A stretch of 64,000 nt of DNA. It comes from Escherichia coli. GTDB lineage: Bacteria > Pseudomonadota > Gammaproteobacteria > Enterobacterales > Enterobacteriaceae. Where the stretch lies: NCBI RefSeq assembly GCF_002854065.1, contig NZ_CP024154.1; one strand, written 5' to 3'. This document shows positions 16,900-31,689 of the stretch, in pieces. The translations under genes and the position numbers were made by a program. The notes below the pieces were generated by a model. It saw only the letters and a program-made list of their open reading frames with translations, was not told the DNA's origin and made no database searches. How positions within the stretch are numbered: position 1 is the stretch's first letter; each line of letters starts with the position of its first letter.

Positions 16900-19611
16900 A
16901 TGAATGCCATTATTCCGCACAAAAGACGTGACGGCAGGTCTTCCTTTGAAGACCTGATTGCGTACACGTCTGTGCGGGATGATGTGCAGGAAAATGAGCT
17001 CACAGAAGACAGCGAAATCAAGAGTGATGTCCCTCACCGCAACCGTTTCAGACGGCTTGTTGATTATGCAACACGCCTGCGTAACGAAAAATTTGTCTCC
17101 CTGATTGATGTGATGAAAGACGGCAGTCAGTGGGTAAATTTCTATGGCGTAACCTGTTTCCATAACTGCAATTCACTGGAAACAGCTGCTGAAGAGATGC
17201 AGTACAAGGCGGACAAAGCTGTTTTTTCCCGTAATGATACAGACCCCGTTTTCCACTACATTCTTTCCTGGCCTGCGCATGAAAGCCCGCGTCCTGAGCA
17301 GCTTTTTGACTGTGTGCGTCACACACTGAAATCTCTTGAACTCTCAAAACATCAGTACGTGGCTGCCGTTCATACGGACACGGATAATCTGCATGTGCAT
17401 GTTGCCGTGAATCGTGTACATCCTGAAACTGGTTATATTAACTGGCTTTCCTGGAGCCAGGAAAAACTCAGCCGTGCATGTCGTGAACTTGAACTTAAGC
17501 ACGGATTCGCGCCTGATAATGGCTGCTTTGTGCATGCACCCGGCAACCGTATTGTGCGCAAAACAGCGCTGGTACGTGAGCGCCGTAATGCCTGGCGACG
17601 CGGGAAAAAGCAGACGTTCAGGGAATATATTGCGCAGATGTCGATTGCCGGGCTGCGTGAAGAGCCCGCACAAGACTGGTTGTCTTTGCATAAACGGCTG
17701 GCCAGTGATGGTCTGTATATCACGATGCAGGAAGGGGAACTGGTGGTGAAGGATGGCTGGGACAGAGCGCGGGAAGGTGTTGCACTCAGTTCGTTCGGAC
17801 CGTCATGGACAGCTGAAAAACTGGGGCGGAAACTGGGGGAATATCAGCCTGTACCGACAGATATTTTCAGTCAGGTGGGGACACCCGGTCGTTATGATCC
17901 GGAAGCCATAAACGTTGATATCCGGCCGGAAAAAGTGGCAGAAACGGAGAGTCTGAAACAGTACGCCTGCCGTTATTTTGCCGAACGCTTACCGGAAATG
18001 GCGAGAAATGGTGAGCTGGAAAGTTGCCTGGATGTGCACAGAACTCTGGCAAAGGCTGGATTATGGATGGGGATCCAGCACGGGCATCTGGTACTGCATG
18101 ATGGATTTGATAAACAACAGACACCAGTACGTGCAGACAGTGTGTGGCCGTTAATGACGCTGGATTATATGCAGGATCTGGATGGTGGATGGCAGCCTGT
18201 ACCGAAGGATATTTTTACTCAGGTTATACCCGGAGAACGATTCCGGGGACGTAATCTTGGTACTCAGGCTGTCAGTGATTACGAATGGTATCGTATGCGG
18301 ATGGGGACAGGTCCACAGGGAGCAATAAAGCGCGAACTGTTTTCTGATAAGGAAAGTCTGTGGGGGTACACGACTGTTCAGTGTGAGTCGTTGATTGAAG
18401 ATATGATCGCGGGCGGGAATTTCAGCTGGCAGGCGTGCCATGAGATGTTTGCGCGTAAAGGGCTTATGTTGCAGAAACAGCATCATGGTCTTGTGATTGT
18501 GGATGCGTTTAATCATGAGCTCACACCAGTGAAGGCCAGCAGTATCCACCCGGATTTGACGTTATCCAGGGCTGAGCTGCAGGCAGGGCCATTTGAGATT
18601 GCAGGTGCAGATATATTTGAACGGGTGAAGCCTGAATGTCGCTACAATCCGGAACTTGCTGCCAGCGATGAAGTGGAACCCGGCTTCCGGCGCGATCCTG
18701 TACTGCGTCGTGAACGCCGTGAAGCCCGTGCAGCTGCGCGGGAAGATTTGCGCGCGCGTTATCTTGCATGGAAGGAGCACTGGCGTAAACCCGACTTACG
18801 TTACGGAGAACGGTTACGGGAAATTCATGCTGCCTGCCGTCGGCGCAAGGCGTATATCCGTGTGCAGTTCCGGGATCCACAATTGCGTAAGCTGCATTAC
18901 CATATTGCGGAAGTGCAGCGTATGCAGGCGCTGATCAGGCTGAAGGAGAGTGTGAAGGAAGAGCGGTTGTCACTGATTGCGGAGGGTAAGTGGTATCCTT
19001 TGTCCTACCGGCAGTGGGTGGAGCAACAGGCGGTACAGGGAGACAGAGCTGCATTATCACAGTTACGTGGCTGGGATTATCGTGATCGTCGCAAAGACAA
19101 GCGACGAACAACGAATGCCGACCGCTGCGTGATTCTCTGTGAACCGGGAGGAACTCCACTTTATGAAGACACTGGCGTTCTCGAAGCCCGTCTGCAGAAA
19201 GATGGCAGTGTGCGTTTTCGTGATCGGAGGAATGGCGAGTTAGTCTGTGTGGATTATGGGGACCGTGTGGTGTTCTACCATCATCAGGACAGAAATGAAC
19301 TGGTGGATAAGCTGAATCTGATTGCTCCTGTATTGTTTGATCGTGAGCCAGGAATGGGTTTTGAACCGGAAGGCTCATATCAACAGTTTAATGATGTATT
19401 TGCGGAAATGGTGGCCTGGCATAATGCAGCTGGAATAACCGGAAATGGACACTTTGTAATCAGCCGCCCGGATGTGGATTTACATCGTCAGCGTAGTGAA
19501 CAGTACTACCACGAATATATCAGGCAACAGAAAAGCATATCCGGGGGGCATGGCGCATCTTATGCTCCAGTTCAGGATAATGAGTGGACGCCACCATCAC
19601 CTGGAATGTAG
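16900..19611 (+). CDS. nikB: conjugative relaxase NikB (MobP family)
   Basis: 903 aa; histidine-triad motif HTDTDNLHVHVAVNRV in the N-terminal relaxase domain; follows nikA; terminator hairpin at about 19631-19664. Confidence 0.9.
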   Translation: MNAIIPHKRRDGRSSFEDLIAYTSVRDDVQENELTEDSEIKSDVPHRNRFRRLVDYATRLRNEKFVSLIDVMKDGSQWVNFYGVTCFHNCNSLETAAEEMQYKADKAVFSRNDTDPVFHYILSWPAHESPRPEQLFDCVRHTLKSLELSKHQYVAAVHTDTDNLHVHVAVNRVHPETGYINWLSWSQEKLSRACRELELKHGFAPDNGCFVHAPGNRIVRKTALVRERRNAWRRGKKQTFREYIAQMSIAGLREEPAQDWLSLHKRLASDGLYITMQEGELVVKDGWDRAREGVALSSFGPSWTAEKLGRKLGEYQPVPTDIFSQVGTPGRYDPEAINVDIRPEKVAETESLKQYACRYFAERLPEMARNGELESCLDVHRTLAKAGLWMGIQHGHLVLHDGFDKQQTPVRADSVWPLMTLDYMQDLDGGWQPVPKDIFTQVIPGERFRGRNLGTQAVSDYEWYRMRMGTGPQGAIKRELFSDKESLWGYTTVQCESLIEDMIAGGNFSWQACHEMFARKGLMLQKQHHGLVIVDAFNHELTPVKASSIHPDLTLSRAELQAGPFEIAGADIFERVKPECRYNPELAASDEVEPGFRRDPVLRRERREARAAAREDLRARYLAWKEHWRKPDLRYGERLREIHAACRRRKAYIRVQFRDPQLRKLHYHIAEVQRMQALIRLKESVKEERLSLIAEGKWYPLSYRQWVEQQAVQGDRAALSQLRGWDYRDRRKDKRRTTNADRCVILCEPGGTPLYEDTGVLEARLQKDGSVRFRDRRNGELVCVDYGDRVVFYHHQDRNELVDKLNLIAPVLFDREPGMGFEPEGSYQQFNDVFAEMVAWHNAAGITGNGHFVISRPDVDLHRQRSEQYYHEYIRQQKSISGGHGASYAPVQDNEWTPPSPGM

Positions 19612-19714
19612 GGATGAGGAGTGGATATTAAAAATCTTAACTTGTATTAGTTAAGATTTTCTTTGCTCTGACAGAGCTATGGTACTGAGATCTATATGGA
19701 TTGAGGAGCAATAT

Positions 19715-20110
19715 ATGGGGGTAAAGAAAATCGTTATGCTGGCTATTTTAGTCAGCTTTGTGGCGGGATGTGCGCCATTACATCCTTCAAATTGCCATAA
19801 AACTACAGCCCTGGGTAGTTGCAGTTCAGGACGTTGGGATGATCAGGATGAATGGGGGGAGCAGGCACGGGGAATCAGGGATGCAATTAATGCTAAACTT
19901 GATGATCCGCAAAAATGGAAAAGGAAAAAATGCAGGTTGCATATGGAATTCTCCCGGGATGGCACGGCGTTAAAAATATCAACCAGTAATGGCGATAAAG
20001 CCTATTGCGAAGCGATAAAGTCAGCAGCCCATAAAGCTAAATTCCCGGCCTTCAACAATCCGGAAGTTTATAGAGATTTTCAAAAATCCGGCTTTGACAT
20101 GCGCGGTTAG
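19715..20110 (+). CDS. putative lipoprotein (131 aa)
   Basis: Signal peptide with lipobox (LVSFVAGC); SD GAGGAG upstream. Confidence 0.5.
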   Translation: MGVKKIVMLAILVSFVAGCAPLHPSNCHKTTALGSCSSGRWDDQDEWGEQARGIRDAINAKLDDPQKWKRKKCRLHMEFSRDGTALKISTSNGDKAYCEAIKSAAHKAKFPAFNNPEVYRDFQKSGFDMRG

Positions 20111-20497
20111 CTCCACGACATATCTGTAGGGCTAACAGAAGACTGTCAGGTTGGCTGATTACTACACTGGAACCTGAGGTACTTTGCCTCAGGTTATGTT
20201 GACATACTCAAAAATAGATTCTTACATTATCCCGGTAACGGCGTCTTTCATCGGCCTGCCAGTTACCATCAATGGTATTGGTACCCTCATTCTTTCTGTC
20301 TGTGATGTTAATAAGGGCAAAATTAATCAGCATGTCTGGCAGGATCTGGGAATTCATACCAATATCCATAGAAGTGAATCTATTACGAACGTGGGGAACC
20401 CTGGCACCATTTTTTGTGCTGCCCATATTTGTTTTCATGTATAATTCATAATCAAAGCGTTCATCCTGATTTAGCTTAACTGATTAAAATCCGTAGA

Positions 20498-20791
20498 TTA
20501 TGATTTTATCAGTGTTGTGACTTTATTTATTATGGGGAGCTTACCCAGTATTTCGAAATTATCGGGAGAACACTTGTACCATCTGTTTGAGCCTGCAAGT
20601 ATTTCTCTGTCCCATCGTCTGACCCTCTCCCCGTTTCTGAGTATGCATATCATATAGTTTTCGGGCACCATCAGTGTCCGGGCTGCCAGAAGACTATTTT
20701 TAAACGTCAGGGAAGTGATATTGATATCTTCTCCGGAATTTTTACGATAAATAACAGACCATGAGTTTTTTTCCGGGCTACTAATACACAT
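20498..20791 (-). CDS. hypothetical protein (97 aa) in AT-rich spacer
   Basis: ORF only. Confidence 0.3.
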   Translation of the reverse strand: MCISSPEKNSWSVIYRKNSGEDINITSLTFKNSLLAARTLMVPENYMICILRNGERVRRWDREILAGSNRWYKCSPDNFEILGKLPIINKVTTLIKS

Positions 20792-20904
20792 TTATTGTAC
20801 CTCTGGTGATGGATTGAAATCCTGAATCCTCCGCTTACTATGGTGAGCGGAGGAGATTAATAATCGCGTAAAGGTTGTTATTAAAATCAGCCATACAGGT
20901 GTTA

Positions 20905-23208
20905 TCAGAATCTTTTTTTACGACTCTCTTGTTTTCCACCTGATGGTGTCTGAGCGACATTTTTTTTATGGGGCGGGGATGCAGTTAGATCCGGTACAGG
21001 TAACAGCATCTCCAGGGGGAGCAGAGTATTCAGAATCGCCTTCACTGAAGGTATATCTTCAGGACCAGAGTGTTCCTCTTCCGGACGATTCAGTGTGATA
21101 TAACATACCCGGCGTTCTTCCCTGGTTGTGTTATTGATAGTGTGCACAGCCTTTTTCCACAGTTCGTTTGCCCGGGATTCGATATCTGTATCATATTGCG
21201 GAAGCAGATCCAGTGATGTCTGCGCTGTTGCCAACCGGCGCTGGAATGTATCAATGATACGGTAAGGCTCTGTACGGTTTTTACGACGTTTACGGGATGG
21301 TTTTGCTGTCAGTACACCGATGATGCTGCTGACATGCTCCGGTGTGGGGAGCCTGCGCTGCACTGTCCTGGGGACGAGACGGCGGAGACGCTCCAGCCGG
21401 GGGGCTTCAACGGAAATATAGCGGTTGATGACCACCGGATCACTGTCGCAACTTTTCTCGCTGTCCGGAATATACACAGAGGCTGACGGCACCACATCCC
21501 CCTGGAAAACGGTAAAGAACTCACCGGCATTCAGTCTGATCAAATCCTGCACGTCGATTTTGCTTTCCATCTGGATGGTGATCTGGTTACCGTCCACCCA
21601 GGACTCACCCATCACACCATCGTGGCGCTGCAGGCTGCCCATTCTGGCCCGTGCCTCTTCACCGGCGGCATTTTTCACCGTTCTTGCCGTTTTGTCGTCA
21701 CTGACAATGCGTCCGGCGAATTTGGTGCCGGCGTTCTGCATCAGTGTGGCGGTGTTGGTGGCGGAGGTCTGCCCTTCAATTCGCTCCTGATCCTGCGCCG
21801 TCATTATCAGGGAAAACTCCAGTGAACGTACCTGGGTGGCCTCCACAGCAATGCGGTCTGTGTAGTAGGCACCGACTTCATCAAGGATACAGATATAGGG
21901 GAAGCTGCCTTTGTATTTTTTGACTTCCAGGGTCTGTGCATCTGTGCCTTCCAGCCGGTAGCCCAGGTCACGGGCGAGGAGCATGCTCTGCTGGGTGACG
22001 AACATACGACCGAGTGCCGACGTGGTATGAGCCGATGTGTCCAGTGCAGGGATCATCACAATCAGAATGCGGTCGCTGTGAATACTGTCGCGAATATCGA
22101 TGTCGCCGGCATCTGCCGCAAAGACGTCCCCGAAGGTTTCGGCAAAGGTTGTGAACGTTTCCGAGAACTGACCGGAGAGATAAGCATGCTGTTTACGGGG
22201 CTCCTCAGTCCAGGCTGACGGCGTTCTCACCAGTGACATATCGAATCCCGGGACATCCTGCAGGTAGTTTCGCAGTGGTGCGATAGCTTCTTCCGGCCAC
22301 TGGTCATCAAGGCCACGGCAATAGAGTTTTGCCATCCCTTCCAGCGTCATATGTTCCCGTAACATCTGCAGGGACATGGTTTTACCTTCCCGGACGCACC
22401 AGAATTTTGTGCCAAAGACCAGGGCCTTGTTCATGGCTATCGCCCGTGACTGCCATTCTCCCCCCTGAACGTTCTGGGGTAGCATGGACTGCATGGTTTC
22501 GGCGGTGAAGGCTTCTGTGCTGAATGCGAACGGGTTCCAGGTGTTTGACTGTGGGCGGGATTTTTCGCCGCTCTGAATGATTTCACTGCGGGATTTTCCG
22601 CCGTTCATGAAGTTGATGACTTCGATATCATCCTCCCTGCCAAAACGTCGGGAGAGATACCAGATTGTCCTCGTGGTATCGTTCTGTGCCTTTCCGTCAA
22701 CAAAGGTAAAGCCTCTTCCCCAGCAGAGCGGGTTGAGCAGCCAGGCAAAGGTGGTTTCTGTTTTACCGCCACCGGTGGTGGCAAAAAACATGACATGCCG
22801 GGTGAGGTCATCCATGCTCAGCCAGAGCTCACGACCGATATCGTTGATACGGCGGTAACCGACATAAAAAATCCCCCGGGCGGGGAATGTTTCATCCGCT
22901 TCATACTGAAACAGGGTGGGCCAGAAGCTGAAGAGGCTTCTCCTGACCTTTCTGTCCTGGGAGGGGTCATCAAGGCTGAGTGTCATGGGCATACGCAGGG
23001 GGCATCGCCAGCGTTGCAGCATGAATATCACGGAGGTGACCAGGGTGAACAGCAGGCAGACAGGAAGGGCCAGTGGCCATATCAGCGCCGTAATGATACT
23101 GCCGGCCAGACACAGACCAGTGATGTTCAGGTTATGCAGTGCATTCCACAACGGGTTTCCCCAGGCCGTGCGGTGTATGAGGTCAGGATTAACGTGGTGC
23201 TGGCTCAT
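20905..23208 (-). CDS. trbC: TrbC-like conjugation ATPase (putative type IV coupling protein) with N-terminal transmembrane segments
   Basis: 767-aa ORF; Walker A FATTGGGKTETTF; position downstream of trbB. Confidence 0.75.
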   Translation of the reverse strand: MSQHHVNPDLIHRTAWGNPLWNALHNLNITGLCLAGSIITALIWPLALPVCLLFTLVTSVIFMLQRWRCPLRMPMTLSLDDPSQDRKVRRSLFSFWPTLFQYEADETFPARGIFYVGYRRINDIGRELWLSMDDLTRHVMFFATTGGGKTETTFAWLLNPLCWGRGFTFVDGKAQNDTTRTIWYLSRRFGREDDIEVINFMNGGKSRSEIIQSGEKSRPQSNTWNPFAFSTEAFTAETMQSMLPQNVQGGEWQSRAIAMNKALVFGTKFWCVREGKTMSLQMLREHMTLEGMAKLYCRGLDDQWPEEAIAPLRNYLQDVPGFDMSLVRTPSAWTEEPRKQHAYLSGQFSETFTTFAETFGDVFAADAGDIDIRDSIHSDRILIVMIPALDTSAHTTSALGRMFVTQQSMLLARDLGYRLEGTDAQTLEVKKYKGSFPYICILDEVGAYYTDRIAVEATQVRSLEFSLIMTAQDQERIEGQTSATNTATLMQNAGTKFAGRIVSDDKTARTVKNAAGEEARARMGSLQRHDGVMGESWVDGNQITIQMESKIDVQDLIRLNAGEFFTVFQGDVVPSASVYIPDSEKSCDSDPVVINRYISVEAPRLERLRRLVPRTVQRRLPTPEHVSSIIGVLTAKPSRKRRKNRTEPYRIIDTFQRRLATAQTSLDLLPQYDTDIESRANELWKKAVHTINNTTREERRVCYITLNRPEEEHSGPEDIPSVKAILNTLLPLEMLLPVPDLTASPPHKKNVAQTPSGGKQESRKKRF

Positions 23209-24313
23209 TGTGATACTCCTCGCTATCTGTTGCTTTCAGGAAGAGGCGAACGGAAGTGGCGTCTTTCAGGATGCCGGACGGCAGGTGCCAGCCGGTATCT
23301 GATAACACCCAGGGGGTTCCGCCAAAACCGAACTGGCGGAAAGCCTGGTTATTGACATCGATGGCAGCACGTGCGGCGGTCAGACACTGTCCATCCTGTG
23401 CGGCCGGTGCATCGCCGGTGGGGGCCATACCACTGTCAGCGGAATACAGCTGATGCCATCCGGTCGCCCGTTTTTGTGAGTCCGGTTCACACAGCAGCGG
23501 AGCAGTCCGCTTTGTACTGGACTCCCCGCCAATCACGGAGACCGGATAAATCACCACGCTGAATTCCCGGGCCAGTTGCTTAAGCGCGGGTTCCAGCAGA
23601 CGGCAGTTGATGCATGCGGGGTCAAGGAAGGCGTACAGCGTGCGTTCATGACCAGTGGACAGGTTAATGGTGAACATCCCCCGGTCTGCGTTGCGTTTAA
23701 GTACTGTGGCCAGATTACGGCGGGCCTCAGCGGCCTGAACGTGTTGTTCTTCCGTCACTGCCGTCGGGGCGGGGGCAGAAGAAGGTTCCTGCTGTGTGGG
23801 AGCCGGGCGGGCCGGGATGCTGTTAACATGATGTTCCGTATGTGGGCGTGGTGTCTCTGTGTCGGTTACTGGTTCAGCTCTCCATTCCTGAGATGTAGGG
23901 TAAGCCAGCGTGGAAGGGGACTCTGCCTTCATCCAGTGGTAACCTGCAACTGTCGCCGGCAGAGCAATTCCGGCGATAAAGCCACACATCAGTGTCCGCC
24001 AGAAGCCATTTTTCCGGGAGGGATGTTTTCCTTTTCCGGCATATTCGGCATCCAGGCAGGCATCAATCGCTGAGAGCATTCTGCCGATGTGATGTCCGGG
24101 ACGTTCTGCATCAACGGTATCAACAAGCACCGTTTCAGTTATTTCGCGAAAAGGGGAACTGAAGGACAGGTGCATCAGCCTGTTATTACGGTTAATCAGT
24201 GCGCCCAGTTCTGTTACCGGCAGGATGGCAATCACCTCCCGATTACCGTCAGGGTACAGGGCGGTCAGGGACAGGTGTTTATTATTCAGTGTTGCAGTGT
24301 AGTGGATGGTCAT
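23189..24313 (-). CDS. trbB: TrbB-like thioredoxin-fold disulfide isomerase
   Basis: CxxC motif (DPACINCRLLEP) in C-terminal half; Pro/Thr-rich linker; trbA-trbB-trbC order. Confidence 0.7.
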   Translation of the reverse strand: MTIHYTATLNNKHLSLTALYPDGNREVIAILPVTELGALINRNNRLMHLSFSSPFREITETVLVDTVDAERPGHHIGRMLSAIDACLDAEYAGKGKHPSRKNGFWRTLMCGFIAGIALPATVAGYHWMKAESPSTLAYPTSQEWRAEPVTDTETPRPHTEHHVNSIPARPAPTQQEPSSAPAPTAVTEEQHVQAAEARRNLATVLKRNADRGMFTINLSTGHERTLYAFLDPACINCRLLEPALKQLAREFSVVIYPVSVIGGESSTKRTAPLLCEPDSQKRATGWHQLYSADSGMAPTGDAPAAQDGQCLTAARAAIDVNNQAFRQFGFGGTPWVLSDTGWHLPSGILKDATSVRLFLKATDSEEYHNEPAPR

Positions 24314-25635
24314 TGTTCTTTTTCCTTGTCGGCGGGATGCTGTTTTTCGGTGGTTTCGGTGGTTTCGGTGGTTTCGGTGGTTTCGGTGGTTTCGGTGGTT
24401 TCGGTGGTTTCGGTGGTTTCACCAGTGTCAGTGTCTTCGTCGTTATCATGGCGGCGGGGTATCACGTCATCCGTGAGTGACCAGCGGGTCCTGATCTGAC
24501 GTTTACGATCGCGATCTGGCTGAGGTTCGTCCCATATCAGGCCCAGCCCCAGCATGTCCCGTCGAAGCCCTTCAATGGCCTCTTCCACACAGGGTTCCGG
24601 GCAGGGGAGGCCGAGACGGCTGGCTTCATTTTCTGCCCGGGCAACGGCCACCACGCCGGCCCCTTCGATGAAGCCTTTTGTGGTGTTTGCCCGGTGAAGG
24701 GCATAGAAGAGCGTCCGGTCAACGCCCTTGAGCCACAGCCAGTTGGGGGGCGTCAGGCGCAAATCATGTGCGTAAAGCCAGACAAGACCGCTGCGAACGT
24801 AACGGTGCTGCCTGAGCCACTGTTGTGCGTCTTCTGTTTTTATGACCCGGATAAAGGCGTTTCTGGCCAGTGAATACACTGGCGTGCTGAAACGCCCCTG
24901 GTCCCGCTTGCTTTTGAGTCTGCAGGAGAGGTTGAGGTTATTCATCAGGGAAACAGCCGATTTCCGGTCCCCAAGGAAGAACTGCAGGCCAAAGACGGCA
25001 AAGAGTGCTTTTTCATGTGGAGCCATGTCTTTCCAGGTGGTCAGAGGCTGGCCCAGTTGCGCCATAAAGCACTGGCGCGTGGCCGCAACATCGAGCTGCA
25101 TGTTGCGGATAAGGTTGTTCTGCTCCACAAAGGCTTCGGGGGTTAGAGCGACACGGCGCTCGGGACGTTTTTGTCCGTGGAAGAGTCTGTTGCTGTCTCC
25201 GTCAGCCAGAACGGGGGCGATCGCCGGTGACAGTGATGAAAACAGATGTGGCAGCGTGTGGATATTCAGTGGTCTGCGGGTGAAGCGGGGCTGGGCCGGA
25301 TGCTGAAACCACATCCACAGAAAGCCGATCGTCATGGGAAGCAGAATCAGCCAGAGGATCCCCACGGTCTGTGACATGACATCCAGCCACTGGCTGAAAG
25401 TGATCGTTGCAGCGTTGTTGGCGGTGTTGGCCAGCAGGTTATAACGGGGGGCGGCAAAATGGTGAAAAGGCCCCCAGTCAGTCATCCCCCACATTGTGTG
25501 CAGGATCAGGCAGGTGGCAAAGACGATGTCGGGTAAAAAGAGCCAGATGAGAAGCGCAAAGAGCAGACATATGGTGCCAACGATATACCATATGTTCATC
25601 GGGTCTTCTGTTGTGGGGGAGTGTTGGTAAGACAC
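24310..25635 (-). CDS. trbA: TrbA-like membrane protein with C-terminal (TET)n repeat
   Basis: 441-aa ORF with N-terminal TM segments; identity assigned by position upstream of trbB; 9-bp in-frame tandem repeat at 24349-24420. Confidence 0.6.
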   Translation of the reverse strand: MSYQHSPTTEDPMNIWYIVGTICLLFALLIWLFLPDIVFATCLILHTMWGMTDWGPFHHFAAPRYNLLANTANNAATITFSQWLDVMSQTVGILWLILLPMTIGFLWMWFQHPAQPRFTRRPLNIHTLPHLFSSLSPAIAPVLADGDSNRLFHGQKRPERRVALTPEAFVEQNNLIRNMQLDVAATRQCFMAQLGQPLTTWKDMAPHEKALFAVFGLQFFLGDRKSAVSLMNNLNLSCRLKSKRDQGRFSTPVYSLARNAFIRVIKTEDAQQWLRQHRYVRSGLVWLYAHDLRLTPPNWLWLKGVDRTLFYALHRANTTKGFIEGAGVVAVARAENEASRLGLPCPEPCVEEAIEGLRRDMLGLGLIWDEPQPDRDRKRQIRTRWSLTDDVIPRRHDNDEDTDTGETTETTETTETTETTETTETTETTEKQHPADKEKEQ

Positions 25636-30102: not shown

Positions 30103-31689
30103 TCAATTATGACAGTCGCTCTCATTTGGTTGTCTCTGGTTAGATGTATTATTAGATATTTTCGGGGTAATTCGATAAAAGTTATCCACTTCAGCACCAG
30201 ACTGAATGATATATGCAATAAGATCTAAACGATGAATCTCGTATCGTGTACGTAACTCCATCATTTCACGCCATGCTAAAATCCTTGATGTTTTCAGTTC
30301 AGCCTCTATAAGTTTCCATGTGTTTGTTGAGATGGCATGTTCTTCCAGCTGACGTAACGAGAACCTATCACTAATGACCAACCATCCCCATCCTCGAGTA
30401 TGTGCCCATTTGCGACCTGCATTACTTTTTATTCTCGTGAGACTCAAGGTCATTCGGTCTGTTGGCTTCACTTCCATAAGTAGGCACCGACCATCAACTG
30501 TCGCAATGAGTAAATCTGGATAGTATTTTTTTGATTTGTTTTTAAAACAATATGGAATAGAAAATGGTTGTTCTTGATAGAAAAGAACCTGATCGCAACA
30601 TTCTAATAGATTCATTATTTTAAACTCAAGCCCTGATTCGTACTGGACTGTACGACCTAATTTTTGAGAGTAAAAGAATCCAGATATGTCAGTATCATTA
30701 ACCGCTCTCTGTGAACATAGCTGTTCTACGGGGGGAGGAGGTGCGATATATTTTGGCCAATGTGTATTGTCTAGCCATTTACTGAATATGAACTCAACTC
30801 TTTCTTTCTTGATTCGGGCTCTTTCCTGAGCGTGAGCGTGTGCTAATTCTGCTCTTCGTTCACGTAACTTCTGCTTTTGTAATTGTGATATTAATGAGAG
30901 CGAATTTTTTATTTCATCTCGTCTTGCTTTAGGAATGCCTGCGGCAAAAATGATGAATTTGGCGGCTAACTCAGAGGATGTAACGAAATCCCGATGAACA
31001 ATACGATAAATCCATACTGCTATATCATATGGTGAATTACCTATTGAGTTAATAAGGGCTTTAAGGCAAGCTCCAGGTGTCCCTTCATAGCGAGATTTAG
31101 CAGCTAGTAAGCCAAGGGCTCGTTCCTGAAGTTGTCTTACCCTTTCACGGGAAATTCCTAATTTGACGGCAATATCTGCCAGAGAATGAGGTGAATCATC
31201 TGTGCCGAGTCGCATTAGAAGAATATATTGATGTCGTTTATTAGATAAACTTTCGATAGCAGAATGAATTAGCATAATGACATCATGTTCATCGGCTATA
31301 TAATCTTTAAAATCTGTATTGGGTTGGCAGAGGGGGAGTGGGGTATTTTGTTTAAAACTATTCTTTTGTATTTCAACTTTATCATGAGCAATTGTTTTTG
31401 CAGTGCTCAATGATATTAAATTATTGATGATACTATTGTGTTCTTGGCGAGGAATCTTGTTGAAGTAATTGCTGAGGTCATTCACCGTGTTTATATCGTT
31501 GAACTCAAGAAACTCAGAAGGAAGCAGGCGTTTGATTGCTCCACGTATTCCCCCGGACGATCGTTGATGTGTTTGAGTAAGTTTTTTTAGCGAGACGCCC
31601 TCCGCTATGGATACGAGAAGACGCTGTAACTCTTCAGTATTCCATGGAGTACCATGTCGTGCTGGAAAATTGCTGCGGGATTCAGACAT
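30103..31689 (-). CDS. 528-aa protein with N-terminal HTH domains and C-terminal PD-(D/E)XK-like nuclease motif, in AT-rich DNA
   Basis: Sigma-70 region-4-like HTH (SLADIAVKLGISRERVRQLQERALGLL); Myb/GcrA-like N-terminus (PWNTEELQRL); C-terminal YYPD...LLMEVKP. Confidence 0.55.
   Translation of the reverse strand: MSESRSNFPARHGTPWNTEELQRLLVSIAEGVSLKKLTQTHQRSSGGIRGAIKRLLPSEFLEFNDINTVNDLSNYFNKIPRQEHNSIINNLISLSTAKTIAHDKVEIQKNSFKQNTPLPLCQPNTDFKDYIADEHDVIMLIHSAIESLSNKRHQYILLMRLGTDDSPHSLADIAVKLGISRERVRQLQERALGLLAAKSRYEGTPGACLKALINSIGNSPYDIAVWIYRIVHRDFVTSSELAAKFIIFAAGIPKARRDEIKNSLSLISQLQKQKLRERRAELAHAHAQERARIKKERVEFIFSKWLDNTHWPKYIAPPPPVEQLCSQRAVNDTDISGFFYSQKLGRTVQYESGLEFKIMNLLECCDQVLFYQEQPFSIPYCFKNKSKKYYPDLLIATVDGRCLLMEVKPTDRMTLSLTRIKSNAGRKWAHTRGWGWLVISDRFSLRQLEEHAISTNTWKLIEAELKTSRILAWREMMELRTRYEIHRLDLIAYIIQSGAEVDNFYRITPKISNNTSNQRQPNESDCHN

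What the first reader, a model, noticed from the sequence alone, without database searches (positions are those of the whole stretch)
19620..20900. AT-rich spacer between converging nikB and trbC with a lipoprotein gene and small ORFs
This spacer has markedly lower GC than either flank and carries a lipobox protein (19715-20110) plus short ORFs on both strands. Convergent operon ends are common insertion points for cargo.
Basis: seen in the sequence. Interest (0 to 1): 0.3.

Follow-up and report, generated by a model that had tools for sequence, protein, structure and literature searches.

The report
Plasmid cargo slot with TolA-mimic lipoprotein
The gap between two converging conjugation operons of this I-complex plasmid is a variable cargo slot whose one intact, well-conserved gene makes an outer-membrane lipoprotein that copies the tip of the host protein TolA, the docking point used by many colicins and filamentous phages; its function has never been tested.

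Summary
Between the nikB stop (19611) and the trbC stop (20905) lies a 1,293-bp spacer of 41.4% GC, against 54% for the window. It holds three things. (1) A lipoprotein gene (19715-20110, lipobox VAGC) whose folded part is a TolA domain III: Pfam PF06519, and an AF2 model about 1 Å from E. coli TolAIII. (2) The last 70 codons of an ireA-type TonB-dependent receptor, a gene relic. (3) A 97-aa PilI-like gene. IncI1 plasmids have only 36 bp here. Related plasmids carry other cargo in the slot: a DUF2971 gene, a full ireA, IS elements, or a resistance island. The "cargo slot" reading is therefore supported.

The lipoprotein equals pO157 L7092, which was detected by proteomics. It is under purifying selection (dN/dS about 0.1). 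It occurs in 1,274 of 5,426 complete E. coli genomes, and the chromosomal copies examined lie between Q and the lysis genes of lambdoid prophages. It belongs to a broad family of about 130-aa TolAIII lipoproteins. I found no functional study.

My best guess (about 0.4) is a TolA mimic tethered to the outer membrane that intercepts Tol-dependent colicins or filamentous phages. The rivals are Tol-Pal interference and a decaying passenger gene. The gene is known and annotated; its role is unassigned. Interest is moderate.

The parts
16900..19611 (+). nikB-type MOBP relaxase gene (left flank, context)
   Evidence: 903-aa ORF. Annotated as relaxase in near-identical plasmids. About 71% nt identity to IncI1 nikB.
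19631..19660 (+). Perfect 12-bp AT-rich hairpin followed by TTTTCTTTG, just after the nikB stop; a weak terminator-like element
   Evidence: Inverted repeat I2. RNA fold -11.8 kcal/mol, z = -3.0. Not called by the strict terminator scan.
19715..20110 (+). Gene for a 131-aa outer-membrane lipoprotein with a TolA domain III fold. PGAP uses an upstream start at 19679, giving 143 aa. Equals pO157 L7092.
   Evidence: Lipobox VAGC with Ala at +2. Pfam PF06519 E = 4e-14, 53 bits against a cutoff of 25. PDB TolAIII E about 3e-8. AF2 pLDDT 91-98 for residues 45-131. Foldseek rmsd 1.0-1.3 Å to 3qdp/3qdr/2x9a/1tol. dN/dS 0.08-0.13. L7092 was detected as a lipoprotein, VAGC31A.
20171..20195 (.). 11-bp GC-rich hairpin between the lipoprotein gene and the ireA relic. 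It folds on both strands and is a likely bidirectional transcript end.
   Evidence: RNA fold -16.6 (+) and -15.7 (-) kcal/mol, z = -3.5 and -2.9. It lies in the segment that is 84-86% identical to the 3' flank of ireA.
20155..20448 (-). Relic of an ireA-type TonB-dependent siderophore receptor: its last ~70 codons (ORF 20208-20438) plus the native 3' flank
   Evidence: NCBIfam NF010011 positions 613-682 of 682, E = 1e-25, 90 bits against a cutoff of 1197. 85-86% nt identity to the 3' end of chromosomal and plasmid ireA. The ORF ends in ...RIYF, as a TonB-dependent receptor does.
20498..20791 (-). 97-aa PilI-like gene, co-oriented with and 113 nt downstream of trbC. Mostly unannotated in public records.
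   Evidence: Pfam PilI PF10623 E = 4e-11, 42.6 bits against a cutoff of 25. AGAGG lies 8 nt before the ATG. Full-length homologues at 51-55% identity occur in a Salmonella I-complex-like plasmid and a K. michiganensis element. By position and length it equals pMS7163B_00650.
20827..20854 (-). 12-bp GC-rich hairpin just downstream of the trbC stop and upstream of the PilI-like gene
   Evidence: Inverted repeat I4. RNA fold -17.4 kcal/mol on the minus strand, z = -3.7.
20905..23208 (-). trbC (right flank, context)
   Evidence: 767-aa ORF. Annotated trbC in near-identical plasmids.

Best explanation
Anatomy (shown, confidence above 0.9). The 1,293-bp nikB-trbC spacer is an accessory-gene slot of an I-complex (IncB/O/K/Z-type) plasmid. 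It holds one intact, selected gene for an outer-membrane lipoprotein whose folded part is a stand-alone copy of TolA domain III. It also holds a dead 3' stump of an ireA siderophore-receptor gene and a small PilI-like gene that trails the trbABC operon.

Mechanism (inferred, about 0.4). The lipoprotein lacks TolA's inner-membrane anchor and its long helical domain II, so it cannot transmit TolQR energy. It hangs from the inner face of the outer membrane on a ~25-residue conserved tether. There it presents the same free beta3 edge strand onto which TolB, phage g3p-N1 and colicin N dock on real TolA by beta-strand addition. I propose it acts as a competitive TolA mimic. It would capture the TolA-binding epitopes of Tol-dependent invaders just under the outer membrane, before they reach the energised TolA. 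The candidate invaders are group A colicins or related bacteriocins, and filamentous phages such as the I-pilus-specific IF1, whose g3p uses TolAIII. The result would be tolerance for the cell that carries the plasmid or prophage.
For: - Domain identity: Pfam PF06519 above its cutoff; PDB sequence hits only to TolAIII; AF2 domain pLDDT 91-98; Foldseek rmsd 1.0-1.3 Å and TM 0.85-0.92 to E. coli TolAIII, including its complexes with colicin A, M13 g3p and IF1 g3p.
- Not a real TolA: 131 aa, a lipoprotein signal peptide in place of the TM anchor, and scores below both NCBIfam TolA equivalog cutoffs.
- Docking strand: the beta3 strand is retained (S125-G-F-D128-M-R130 against TolA A415-P-L-D418-F-K420) with no proline at the positions whose backbone amides make the H-bonds to g3p, and where proline substitutions abolish ColN activity and TolB binding (mapping; PMC4339652). 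Alpha4 and beta3 are among the most conserved segments in 67 distinct homologues.
- The protein is made and behaves as a lipoprotein in O157:H7 (L7092).
- Purifying selection, dN/dS 0.08-0.13.
- Distribution typical of a protective moron. It is present with >=80% coverage in 603 plasmid records, 593 of them >=99% identical. It is found in 1,274 of 5,426 complete E. coli genomes. The three prophage copies examined lie between antiterminator Q and the holin. It matches PHROG 5772.
- The prophages carry a second tandem paralogue that ends in VLDFKP, like host TolA. Many of the ~130-aa family members are lipoproteins that end in LDFK(P/L). This fits mimicry of the host docking strand.
- From my own knowledge, not tested here: periplasmic expression of detached TolAIII gives colicin and Ff-phage tolerance (Levengood-Freyermuth et al. 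1993).
Against: - No phenotype or binding data exist.
- Identity to host TolAIII is only 27-32%.
- The colicin A box is not conserved: K368/K379/K396/D377 correspond to E78/S89/H106/K87 (mapping; PMC3365938).
- Abundance in the O157 proteome is low (APEX 321).
- The gene is 3'-truncated by insertions in several successful plasmid lineages (P0107, P0059, P0005).
- No convincing own promoter lies upstream.
- The prophage copies sit in the late, lysis-proximal region, which could mean expression at lysis rather than in the protected lysogen.
- PADLOC gives no defence-system match.
Confidence: 0.4

Rival explanations
1. Tol-Pal interference. The detached TolAIII domain competes with host TolA for the TolB N-terminus (or for Pal or CpoB) and locally loosens the outer membrane. 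This would aid phage lysis or release in prophages, and vesiculation, mating-pair formation or protein release in plasmids.
For: The site used by g3p and ColN is also the TolB site (PMC4339652; PMC7391070), and the beta3 strand is retained. The prophage copies lie immediately upstream of holin, endolysin and spanin. A ciprofloxacin study reports 32-fold induction of a prophage gene that it links to TolA; I did not check whether that gene belongs to this family. From my own knowledge: periplasmic TolAIII causes a leaky tol phenotype.
Against: A tol phenotype (bile and detergent sensitivity) should be costly for gut bacteria that carry a plasmid copy. The plasmid copy has no lysis partners. The protein is detected in unstressed O157 cultures. 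The gene is absent from sequenced lytic and temperate phage genomes except for one record.
Confidence: 0.2
2. Passenger or decaying cargo. The module is a leftover of past insertions and now contributes nothing to this plasmid. The lipoprotein gene is simply the part that has not yet been hit.
For: The ireA stump is dead. The PilI-like gene is deleted, IS-disrupted or frameshifted in pO113, L012 and L019. The lipoprotein gene is truncated in three independent ways. IncI1 plasmids do without the whole slot. TraDIS logFC is +0.39 and +1.79, so the genes are not needed for surface conjugation.
Against: dN/dS is about 0.1 across plasmid, prophage, Citrobacter and Enterobacter alleles. The gene is present with >=80% coverage in 603 plasmid records, 593 of them >=99% identical, and it was retained when pO157 kept only the nikB tail plus this gene. 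The protein is detected.
Confidence: 0.15
3. Conjugation accessory, or entry or surface exclusion. The lipoprotein would act at the mating interface.
For: It lies between the relaxase operon and the coupling-protein operon. Surface-exclusion proteins such as TraT are outer-membrane lipoproteins (my own knowledge).
Against: There is no TraT or exclusion family hit. The same gene lives in prophages and in Citrobacter and Enterobacter chromosomes with no conjugation genes nearby. TraDIS in pMS7163B shows no requirement, although that allele is already truncated.
Confidence: 0.05
4. Partner of the IreA siderophore receptor. A TolA/TonB-fold lipoprotein would work together with the adjacent TonB-dependent receptor.
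For: The gene is convergent with an ireA relic here and with a full-length ireA in pSTEC2018_553-a and pSTEC1012_2. The TolAIII and TonB C-terminal domains share a fold (weak Foldseek hits).
Against: A chromosomal ireA locus is IS-flanked and has no such gene. Homology between chromosomal ireA loci and the window stops at 20155. The prophage, Citrobacter and Enterobacter copies have no adjacent receptor. The full ireA in related plasmids is a later 2.9-kb insertion.
Confidence: 0.05

Closest known systems
E. coli TolA, C-terminal domain III (PDB 1TOL, 3QDP/3QDR, 2X9A, 1S62)
   Same: The same alpha/beta fold (rmsd 1.0-1.3 Å). The two Cys that align with TolA C363 and C388 are invariant (C73, C98). 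The C-terminal beta3 edge strand is retained, with the Asp and the basic residue kept.
   Different: It has no transmembrane domain I and no helical domain II. It has a lipoprotein signal peptide and outer-membrane anchor instead, plus a conserved Cys-rich tether (residues 19-44) that TolA lacks. Identity is 27-32%. The colicin A box lysines are replaced. It scores below the NCBIfam TolA cutoffs.
pO157 L7092 (E. coli O157:H7 virulence plasmid)
   Same: The same gene, 99.2% aa identity. pO157 keeps window 18800-20265, that is the nikB tail plus this gene. It was detected as a lipoprotein with motif VAGC31A.
   Different: It sits in an F-type, non-conjugative plasmid as a remnant of an I-complex backbone. 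The literature still lists it as 'uncharacterized'.
Small outer-membrane lipoproteins of mobile elements that exclude invaders: T5 Llp, phi80/N15 Cor, F TraT, lambda Bor (from my own knowledge)
   Same: Small lipoproteins carried as morons or cargo by phages and plasmids. The prophage copies occupy a classic moron slot between Q and the lysis genes.
   Different: Those proteins block outer-membrane receptors (FhuA, OmpA) or complement and are unrelated in sequence. This one copies a periplasmic host domain. No exclusion phenotype has been shown.
Laboratory constructs that export detached TolAIII, g3p-N1 or colicin T-domains to the periplasm (from my own knowledge: Levengood-Freyermuth 1993; Bouveret and co-workers)
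   Same: A free TolAIII domain in the periplasm, which in those experiments gave colicin and Ff tolerance together with outer-membrane leakiness.
   Different: This is a natural gene. It is lipid-anchored to the outer membrane, divergent from host TolAIII, and expressed at an unknown, apparently low level.
R64 PilI (Pfam PF10623) for the 97-aa ORF
   Same: The HMM match is above the gathering cutoff. Identity to annotated PilI proteins is 35-45% over part of the length.
   Different: It lies after trbC rather than at the head of the pil operon. PilI itself has no known function and is dispensable for surface conjugation in pMS7163B.
IreA TonB-dependent siderophore receptor for the 76-aa ORF
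   Same: 85-86% nt identity to the 3' end of ireA, with the terminal ...YF motif.
   Different: Only positions 613-682 of 682 remain. There is no plug and no barrel, so it is non-functional.

Membership tests
TolA C-terminal domain (Pfam PF06519, TolAIII fold) | Profile match above the curated gathering score | tested here: met
   53 bits against a cutoff of 25, E = 4e-14, residues 44-125 on profile positions 10-92 of 96.
TolA C-terminal domain (Pfam PF06519, TolAIII fold) | Three-stranded sheet packed against helices, superposable on solved TolAIII | tested here: met
AF2 pLDDT 91-98 for residues 45-131.
TolA C-terminal domain (Pfam PF06519, TolAIII fold) | Free C-terminal beta3 edge strand able to accept a partner strand (the TolB, g3p and ColN site) | tested here: inconclusive
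   The strand is predicted at 124-130. D128 and R130 align with D418 and K420, and there is no proline (PMC4339652). Partner binding cannot be tested with these tools.
Full-length TolA (NCBIfam TIGR02794 / NF007065, cell envelope integrity protein) | Equivalog score cutoff for the whole protein | tested here: not met
   45.2 bits against 59.45, and 53.8 bits against 213. Only the C-terminal ~80 profile positions match.
Full-length TolA (NCBIfam TIGR02794 / NF007065, cell envelope integrity protein) | N-terminal inner-membrane anchor (domain I) and long helical domain II that couple to TolQR | tested here: not met
   The protein is 131 aa in total. The N-terminus is a lipoprotein signal peptide, followed by a 25-residue tether.
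Bacterial lipoproteins (signal peptidase II substrates) | Positively charged n-region, hydrophobic h-region, lipobox [LVI][ASTVI][GAS]C | tested here: met
   MGVKK-IVMLAILVSF-VAGC. The Cys is aligned in 44 of 45 family members. The pO157 orthologue was enriched in the lipoprotein fraction.
Bacterial lipoproteins (signal peptidase II substrates) | Outer-membrane sorting (no Asp at +2, Lol pathway rule) | tested here: met
   The +2 residue is Ala. The family members listed have A, T, S, H, V, Q, G, N or K at +2. The actual localisation is not testable here.
IreA-family TonB-dependent receptor (NF010011) | Full-length plug plus 22-strand barrel, score above the cutoff | tested here: not met
   Only profile positions 613-682 of 682 match. 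89.7 bits against a cutoff of 1197. It is a fragment.
PilI (Pfam PF10623) | Profile match above the gathering score | tested here: met
   42.6 bits against 25, residues 34-84 on profile positions 26-75 of 77.
PilI (Pfam PF10623) | Encoded at the start of the thin-pilus (pil) operon | tested here: not met
   It lies 113 nt downstream of trbC. There is no other copy in the window.
Surface or entry exclusion proteins (TraT, ExcA/TraS type) and colicin lysis lipoproteins | Sequence membership in those families | tested here: not met
   The only Pfam and NCBIfam hits are to TolA models. The mature protein of 112 aa is far larger than colicin lysis proteins (my own knowledge).
Known anti-phage defence systems (PADLOC-DB 2.0) | Match to any defence-protein model | tested here: not met
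   No hit for the lipoprotein or its Klebsiella relative. The PilI-like ORF has only a chance-level hit.

The most novel reading that the evidence does not exclude
Lipid-anchored copies of TolA domain III may be a widespread, undescribed class of envelope-level protection factors carried by plasmids and prophages of Enterobacteriaceae. They would disarm Tol-dependent invaders by mimicking the host docking domain. On I-complex plasmids this would cover the plasmid's own weak point, because its I-pili attract filamentous phages (IF1 type) whose g3p must next bind TolAIII. One further lead is untested. The tether is as conserved as the fold core and carries a G-x-C-S-S-G-R-W-D-D-Q-D-E-W-G motif. 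This recalls, from memory only, the colicin E9 TolB-binding epitope. If the resemblance is real, the protein could trap TolB through two sites and so also mimic Pal.
Probability: 0.3. Interest if true: 0.7.

Novelty: new variant of a known kind. Interest (0 to 1): 0.42.

Why it matters
If the mimic idea is right, about a quarter of sequenced E. coli strains carry a simple, transferable tolerance factor against Tol-dependent colicins or filamentous phages. These strains include O157:H7, through pO157, and many hosts of ESBL and other resistance plasmids of the IncB/O/K/Z groups. That would bear on bacteriocin- and phage-based therapies, on competition in the gut, and on why conjugative plasmids can afford to display pili that phages use. 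It would also add host-domain mimicry in the periplasm to the known ways in which mobile elements protect their hosts. If the rival is right (Tol-Pal interference), the protein would be a natural tool for outer-membrane destabilisation and vesicle release. In either case the experiments are cheap, and the gene has sat unstudied in pO157 under the locus tag L7092.

Tried and rejected
- Rfam scan of 19400-21100 at E <= 1: only a chance snoRNA hit, so there is no known RNA gene.
- Repeat search: no terminal inverted or direct repeats bound the module, so there is no transposon signature.
- Promoter and terminator scan: no plus-strand promoter lies upstream of the lipoprotein gene and no canonical terminator is called. 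My manual look at 19612-19714 found only a poor CTGACA-19 nt-TATATG pair. How the gene is transcribed remains open.
- PADLOC: no hit.
- BFVD viral structure library: nothing at E <= 0.001.
- Phage genome collection: one record only.
- Contexts of distant family members P0145, P0217 and P0160: the contigs were too short to be informative.
- Selection on the PilI-like ORF among close alleles: too few substitutions.
- Deeper-alignment AF2 run to resolve the conserved tether: it stayed at pLDDT about 52.
- Literature: seven full-text searches for a function of a TolA-like lipoprotein on plasmids or prophages found none. One apparent hit was the author name 'Tolar'.
- Entry exclusion or colicin-lysis protein identity: rejected on sequence.
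- IreA-partner idea: rejected on context.
- The plus-strand ORF tested (20184-20444) has no family hit and overlaps the ireA relic on the opposite strand. The other short plus-strand ORFs (20272-20451, 20517-20657) were not scanned; they overlap the supported minus-strand features, so I treat them as antisense shadows.
Full report
**1. Observation**

- The window is part of an I-complex plasmid. Near-identical records are typed IncI1/B/O, MOBP, MPF_I.
- The 903-aa relaxase ORF (nikB type) ends at 19611 on the + strand. The 767-aa trbC ORF ends at 20905 on the - strand. The convergent spacer is therefore 19612-20904, 1,293 bp.
- Its GC is 41.4%, against 51.1% for nikB, 54.1% for trbC and 54.0% for the window. 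Only 2.7% of equal-size windows are as low.
- The lipobox ORF at 19715-20110 exists as described.

**2. Contents of the spacer, left to right**

(a) A perfect 12-bp AT-rich hairpin at 19631-19660, followed by a T-rich run, lies just after nikB.

(b) The lipoprotein gene, 19715-20110.
- GAGGAG lies 7 nt before the ATG. The signal peptide is MGVKKIVMLAILVSFVAGC, with Ala at +2.
- PGAP starts it 36 nt earlier, at 19679, giving 143 aa. Three things favour 19715: homology to the prophage alleles begins at 19716, those alleles start with GTG at that position, and pMS7163B is annotated from that position. The mature protein is the same with either start.

(c) An 11-bp GC-rich hairpin at 20171-20195 folds on both strands.

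(d) A 76-aa minus-strand ORF at 20208-20438.
- It matches only positions 613-682 of 682 of the IreA TonB-dependent receptor model.
- It is 85-86% identical at the DNA level to the 3' end and 3' flank of ireA.
- It is a gene stump.

(e) A 97-aa minus-strand ORF at 20498-20791.
- It has a good ribosome-binding site and matches Pfam PilI above the cutoff.
- Full-length homologues at 51-55% identity occur in other conjugative elements.
- Most public records leave it unannotated.

(f) A 12-bp GC-rich hairpin at 20827-20854 lies just after trbC.

The plus-strand ORF tested (20184-20444) has no family hit. No Rfam family and no bounding repeats were found.

**3. The spacer is a variable cargo slot**

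| Plasmid | What lies between nikB and trbC |
|---|---|
| IncI1-type p9134dAT | 36 bp, no gene |
| An IncI1 variant | a DUF2971 gene |
| S. sonnei p1527837_2 | 220 bp, no gene |
| pO113 | window minus 20348-20624; fuses the PilI-like N-terminus to the ireA stump |
| pSTEC2018_553-a, pSTEC1012_2 | a 2.9-kb segment with a complete ireA inserted at 20212-20215, AAAT at both junctions; the former also has an IS3 |
| An STEC plasmid (L012) | ISEc31 at 20431-20434 and IS66 at 20752 |
| CP142549 | ISKpn26 |
| pMS7163B | a sul/dfrA14/aph island |

- pO157 retains only the nikB tail plus the lipoprotein gene, window 18800-20265, at 98-99% identity.
- The TraDIS data for pMS7163B give logFC +1.79 for the 294-bp ORF next to trbC and +0.39 for the ORF next to nikB. 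Neither is needed for surface conjugation.
- Equating those two ORFs with the ones here rests on position and length.
- The nikB-side ORF there is 153 aa. That matches the truncated allele P0107, which diverges after residue 105. The test is therefore not clean for the lipoprotein.

**4. What the lipoprotein is**

- Pfam TolA C-terminal domain: 53 bits against a cutoff of 25.
- The PDB sequence search hits only TolA domain III entries at E about 1e-8.
- AF2 with a 45-sequence alignment gives pLDDT 91-98 for residues 45-131 and about 52 for the tether, residues 19-44.
- Foldseek on the first AF2 model (10-sequence alignment) superposes it on E. coli TolAIII at 1.0-1.3 Å. The matches include the complexes with colicin A, M13 g3p and IF1 g3p.
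- It is not a TolA. It is 131 aa, it has no membrane anchor and no domain II, and it scores below both NCBIfam TolA cutoffs.

Using the HMMER alignment (query residue i corresponds to TolA residue i + 290):
- The two Cys are invariant: C73 and C98 align with TolA C363 and C388.
- The beta3 strand is kept as a strand with no proline: S125-G-F-D128-M-R130 against TolA A415-K420. On TolA this strand accepts TolB, g3p and colicin N by strand addition, through the D418 and K420 backbone amides (PMC4339652).
- The colicin A box is changed: K368, D377, K379 and K396 correspond to E78, K87, S89 and H106 (PMC3365938).

**5. Evidence that it is a working gene**

- The pO157 orthologue L7092 (16,108 Da, motif VAGC31A) was detected by shotgun proteomics and was enriched in the lipoprotein fraction (PMC3210124).
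- dN/dS against the prophage, Citrobacter and Enterobacter alleles is 0.08-0.13, with dS 0.5-1.0.
- Among 67 distinct close homologues, the most conserved segments are beta1, alpha4-beta3 and, unexpectedly, the tether (13 of 26 residues invariant), which AF2 cannot place.

**6. Distribution**

- tblastn finds it in 883 plasmid records. In 603 a match covers at least 80% of the protein, and 593 are at least 99% identical.
- In complete E. coli genomes it is present in 1,274 of 5,426: 548 plasmid places and 825 chromosomal places at about 88% nt identity.
- The three prophage copies examined lie in lambdoid prophages. In the phage record and in one chromosome the gene sits between antiterminator Q and the holin. 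In the second chromosome it sits just upstream of the holin in a degraded Rac-like prophage. This is the slot that holds stx in Stx phages.
- In all three it is in tandem with a second TolAIII lipoprotein, whose C-terminus VLDFKP is almost that of host TolA and which is often a pseudogene.
- It matches PHROG 5772, function unknown, E = 2e-60.
- Homologues at 80-86% identity are single genes in varied chromosomal contexts in Citrobacter, Enterobacter, Serratia and Raoultella.
- Klebsiella IncR and IncF plasmids carry a 144-aa relative (32% identity, lipobox ITAC) next to a thioredoxin-fold gene.
- An exhaustive search of 1.8 billion representatives gives 111 hits, mostly 120-150 aa. Of 45 aligned members, 44 have the lipobox Cys, and many end in LDFK(P/L).
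- There is thus a broad family of lipid-anchored TolA domain III proteins.
- Seven full-text searches found no functional study.

**7. Mechanism**

- Shown: a detached TolAIII fold on an outer-membrane lipid anchor, expressed, selected, and carried by plasmids and prophages.
- Inferred: because it cannot couple to TolQR, its plausible activity is competition for ligands of TolAIII.
- My preferred reading (about 0.4) is a protective mimic. It would intercept colicin or filamentous-phage epitopes beneath the outer membrane. IF1, the I-pilus phage, is known to use TolAIII (PDB 2x9a), which gives an I-complex plasmid a specific reason to carry such a gene.

| Rival | Confidence | Main argument for |
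|---|---|---|
| Interference with Tol-Pal through TolB | about 0.2 | The gene sits next to the lysis cassette in prophages |
| Decaying passenger | about 0.15 | The other slot contents are dead or often disrupted |
| Conjugation or exclusion accessory | 0.05 | Position between the two transfer operons |
| IreA partner | 0.05 | Convergent with ireA in this slot |

- Against the mimic reading: identity to host TolAIII is low, the colicin A box is lost, abundance is low, several plasmid lineages carry truncated alleles, no own promoter is evident, and the prophage location is in the late region.
- Against the IreA-partner rival: a chromosomal ireA locus is IS-flanked and has no such neighbour.

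**8. Comparison with known families, and verdict**

- The domain is a member of PF06519. The protein is not a member of the TolA equivalog family.
- The closest functional analogies are mobile-element lipoproteins such as Llp, Cor, TraT and Bor, and laboratory periplasmic TolAIII constructs. These are from my own knowledge and were not tested here.
- The sequence itself is not new. It is L7092 of pO157, and PGAP names it "TolA C-terminal domain-containing protein".
- What I could not find in the literature is any recognition of a family of TolA-mimic lipoproteins borne by mobile elements, or any role for it. I rate it a new variant of a known kind and of moderate interest.
- The rest of the spacer, the ireA stump and the PilI-like ORF, is ordinary plasmid debris and small cargo.

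Noticed in passing
window 30103-31689 (-): This is the lowest-GC stretch of the window (about 38%). It holds a 528-aa ORF that combines a sigma-70 region 4 domain with a TnsA-like endonuclease N-terminal domain. It is probably the 'putative sigma factor' singled out in the pCT IncK plasmid paper, but I did not test that equivalence.
   Followed up: partly
window 24345-24420: A perfect 9-bp tandem repeat (TTTCGGTGG, 8.4 copies) lies in the 3' end of the trbA-type ORF (24310-25635, -). It encodes a (TTE)n tail. It could vary in copy number between plasmids.
   Followed up: no
L011 6106-10358 and L019 4080-6996, against window 20212-20215: Two related plasmids carry a complete ireA inserted exactly between the last codon and the stop codon of the older ireA stump. 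AAAT is present at both junctions, and the inserted gene is only 86-89% identical to the stump. It is odd that a second ireA copy landed precisely at the end of the first, and this is unexplained.
   Followed up: partly
L014 5422-5850; L015 4589-4849; L016 3589-3849: Lambdoid prophages carry a second TolAIII lipoprotein (lipobox IIGC) directly upstream of the one studied. Its sequence is much closer to host TolA and ends in VLDFKP. In both E. coli chromosomes inspected it is a pseudogene.
   Followed up: partly
L013 2768-3797: Klebsiella IncR and IncF plasmids (about 277 records with weak tblastn hits) encode a different 144-aa TolAIII lipoprotein (lipobox ITAC) immediately after a periplasmic thioredoxin-fold protein. 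This may be a two-gene unit.
   Followed up: partly
window 19769-19846 (lipoprotein residues 19-44): The tether between the lipid Cys and the TolAIII fold is as conserved as the fold core (13 of 26 residues invariant in 67 homologues) and carries two extra Cys and a W-x5-W acidic motif. AF2 gives it a pLDDT of only about 52. It looks like a binding motif rather than a passive linker.
   Followed up: no
P0107, P0059, P0005 (alleles of window 19715-20110): Three different 3' truncations or fusions of the lipoprotein gene, after residues 105, 109 and 113, are each represented in public data. Two of them are seen on more than 100 contigs each. The 3' third of the gene seems to be a preferred insertion point.
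   Followed up: partly
L009 1126-1944 and L013 8467-8791: A DUF2971 gene fills the nikB-trbC slot in some IncI1 plasmids. Another DUF2971 gene lies about 4.7 kb from the Klebsiella TolAIII lipoprotein gene. This is possibly a coincidence.
   Followed up: no
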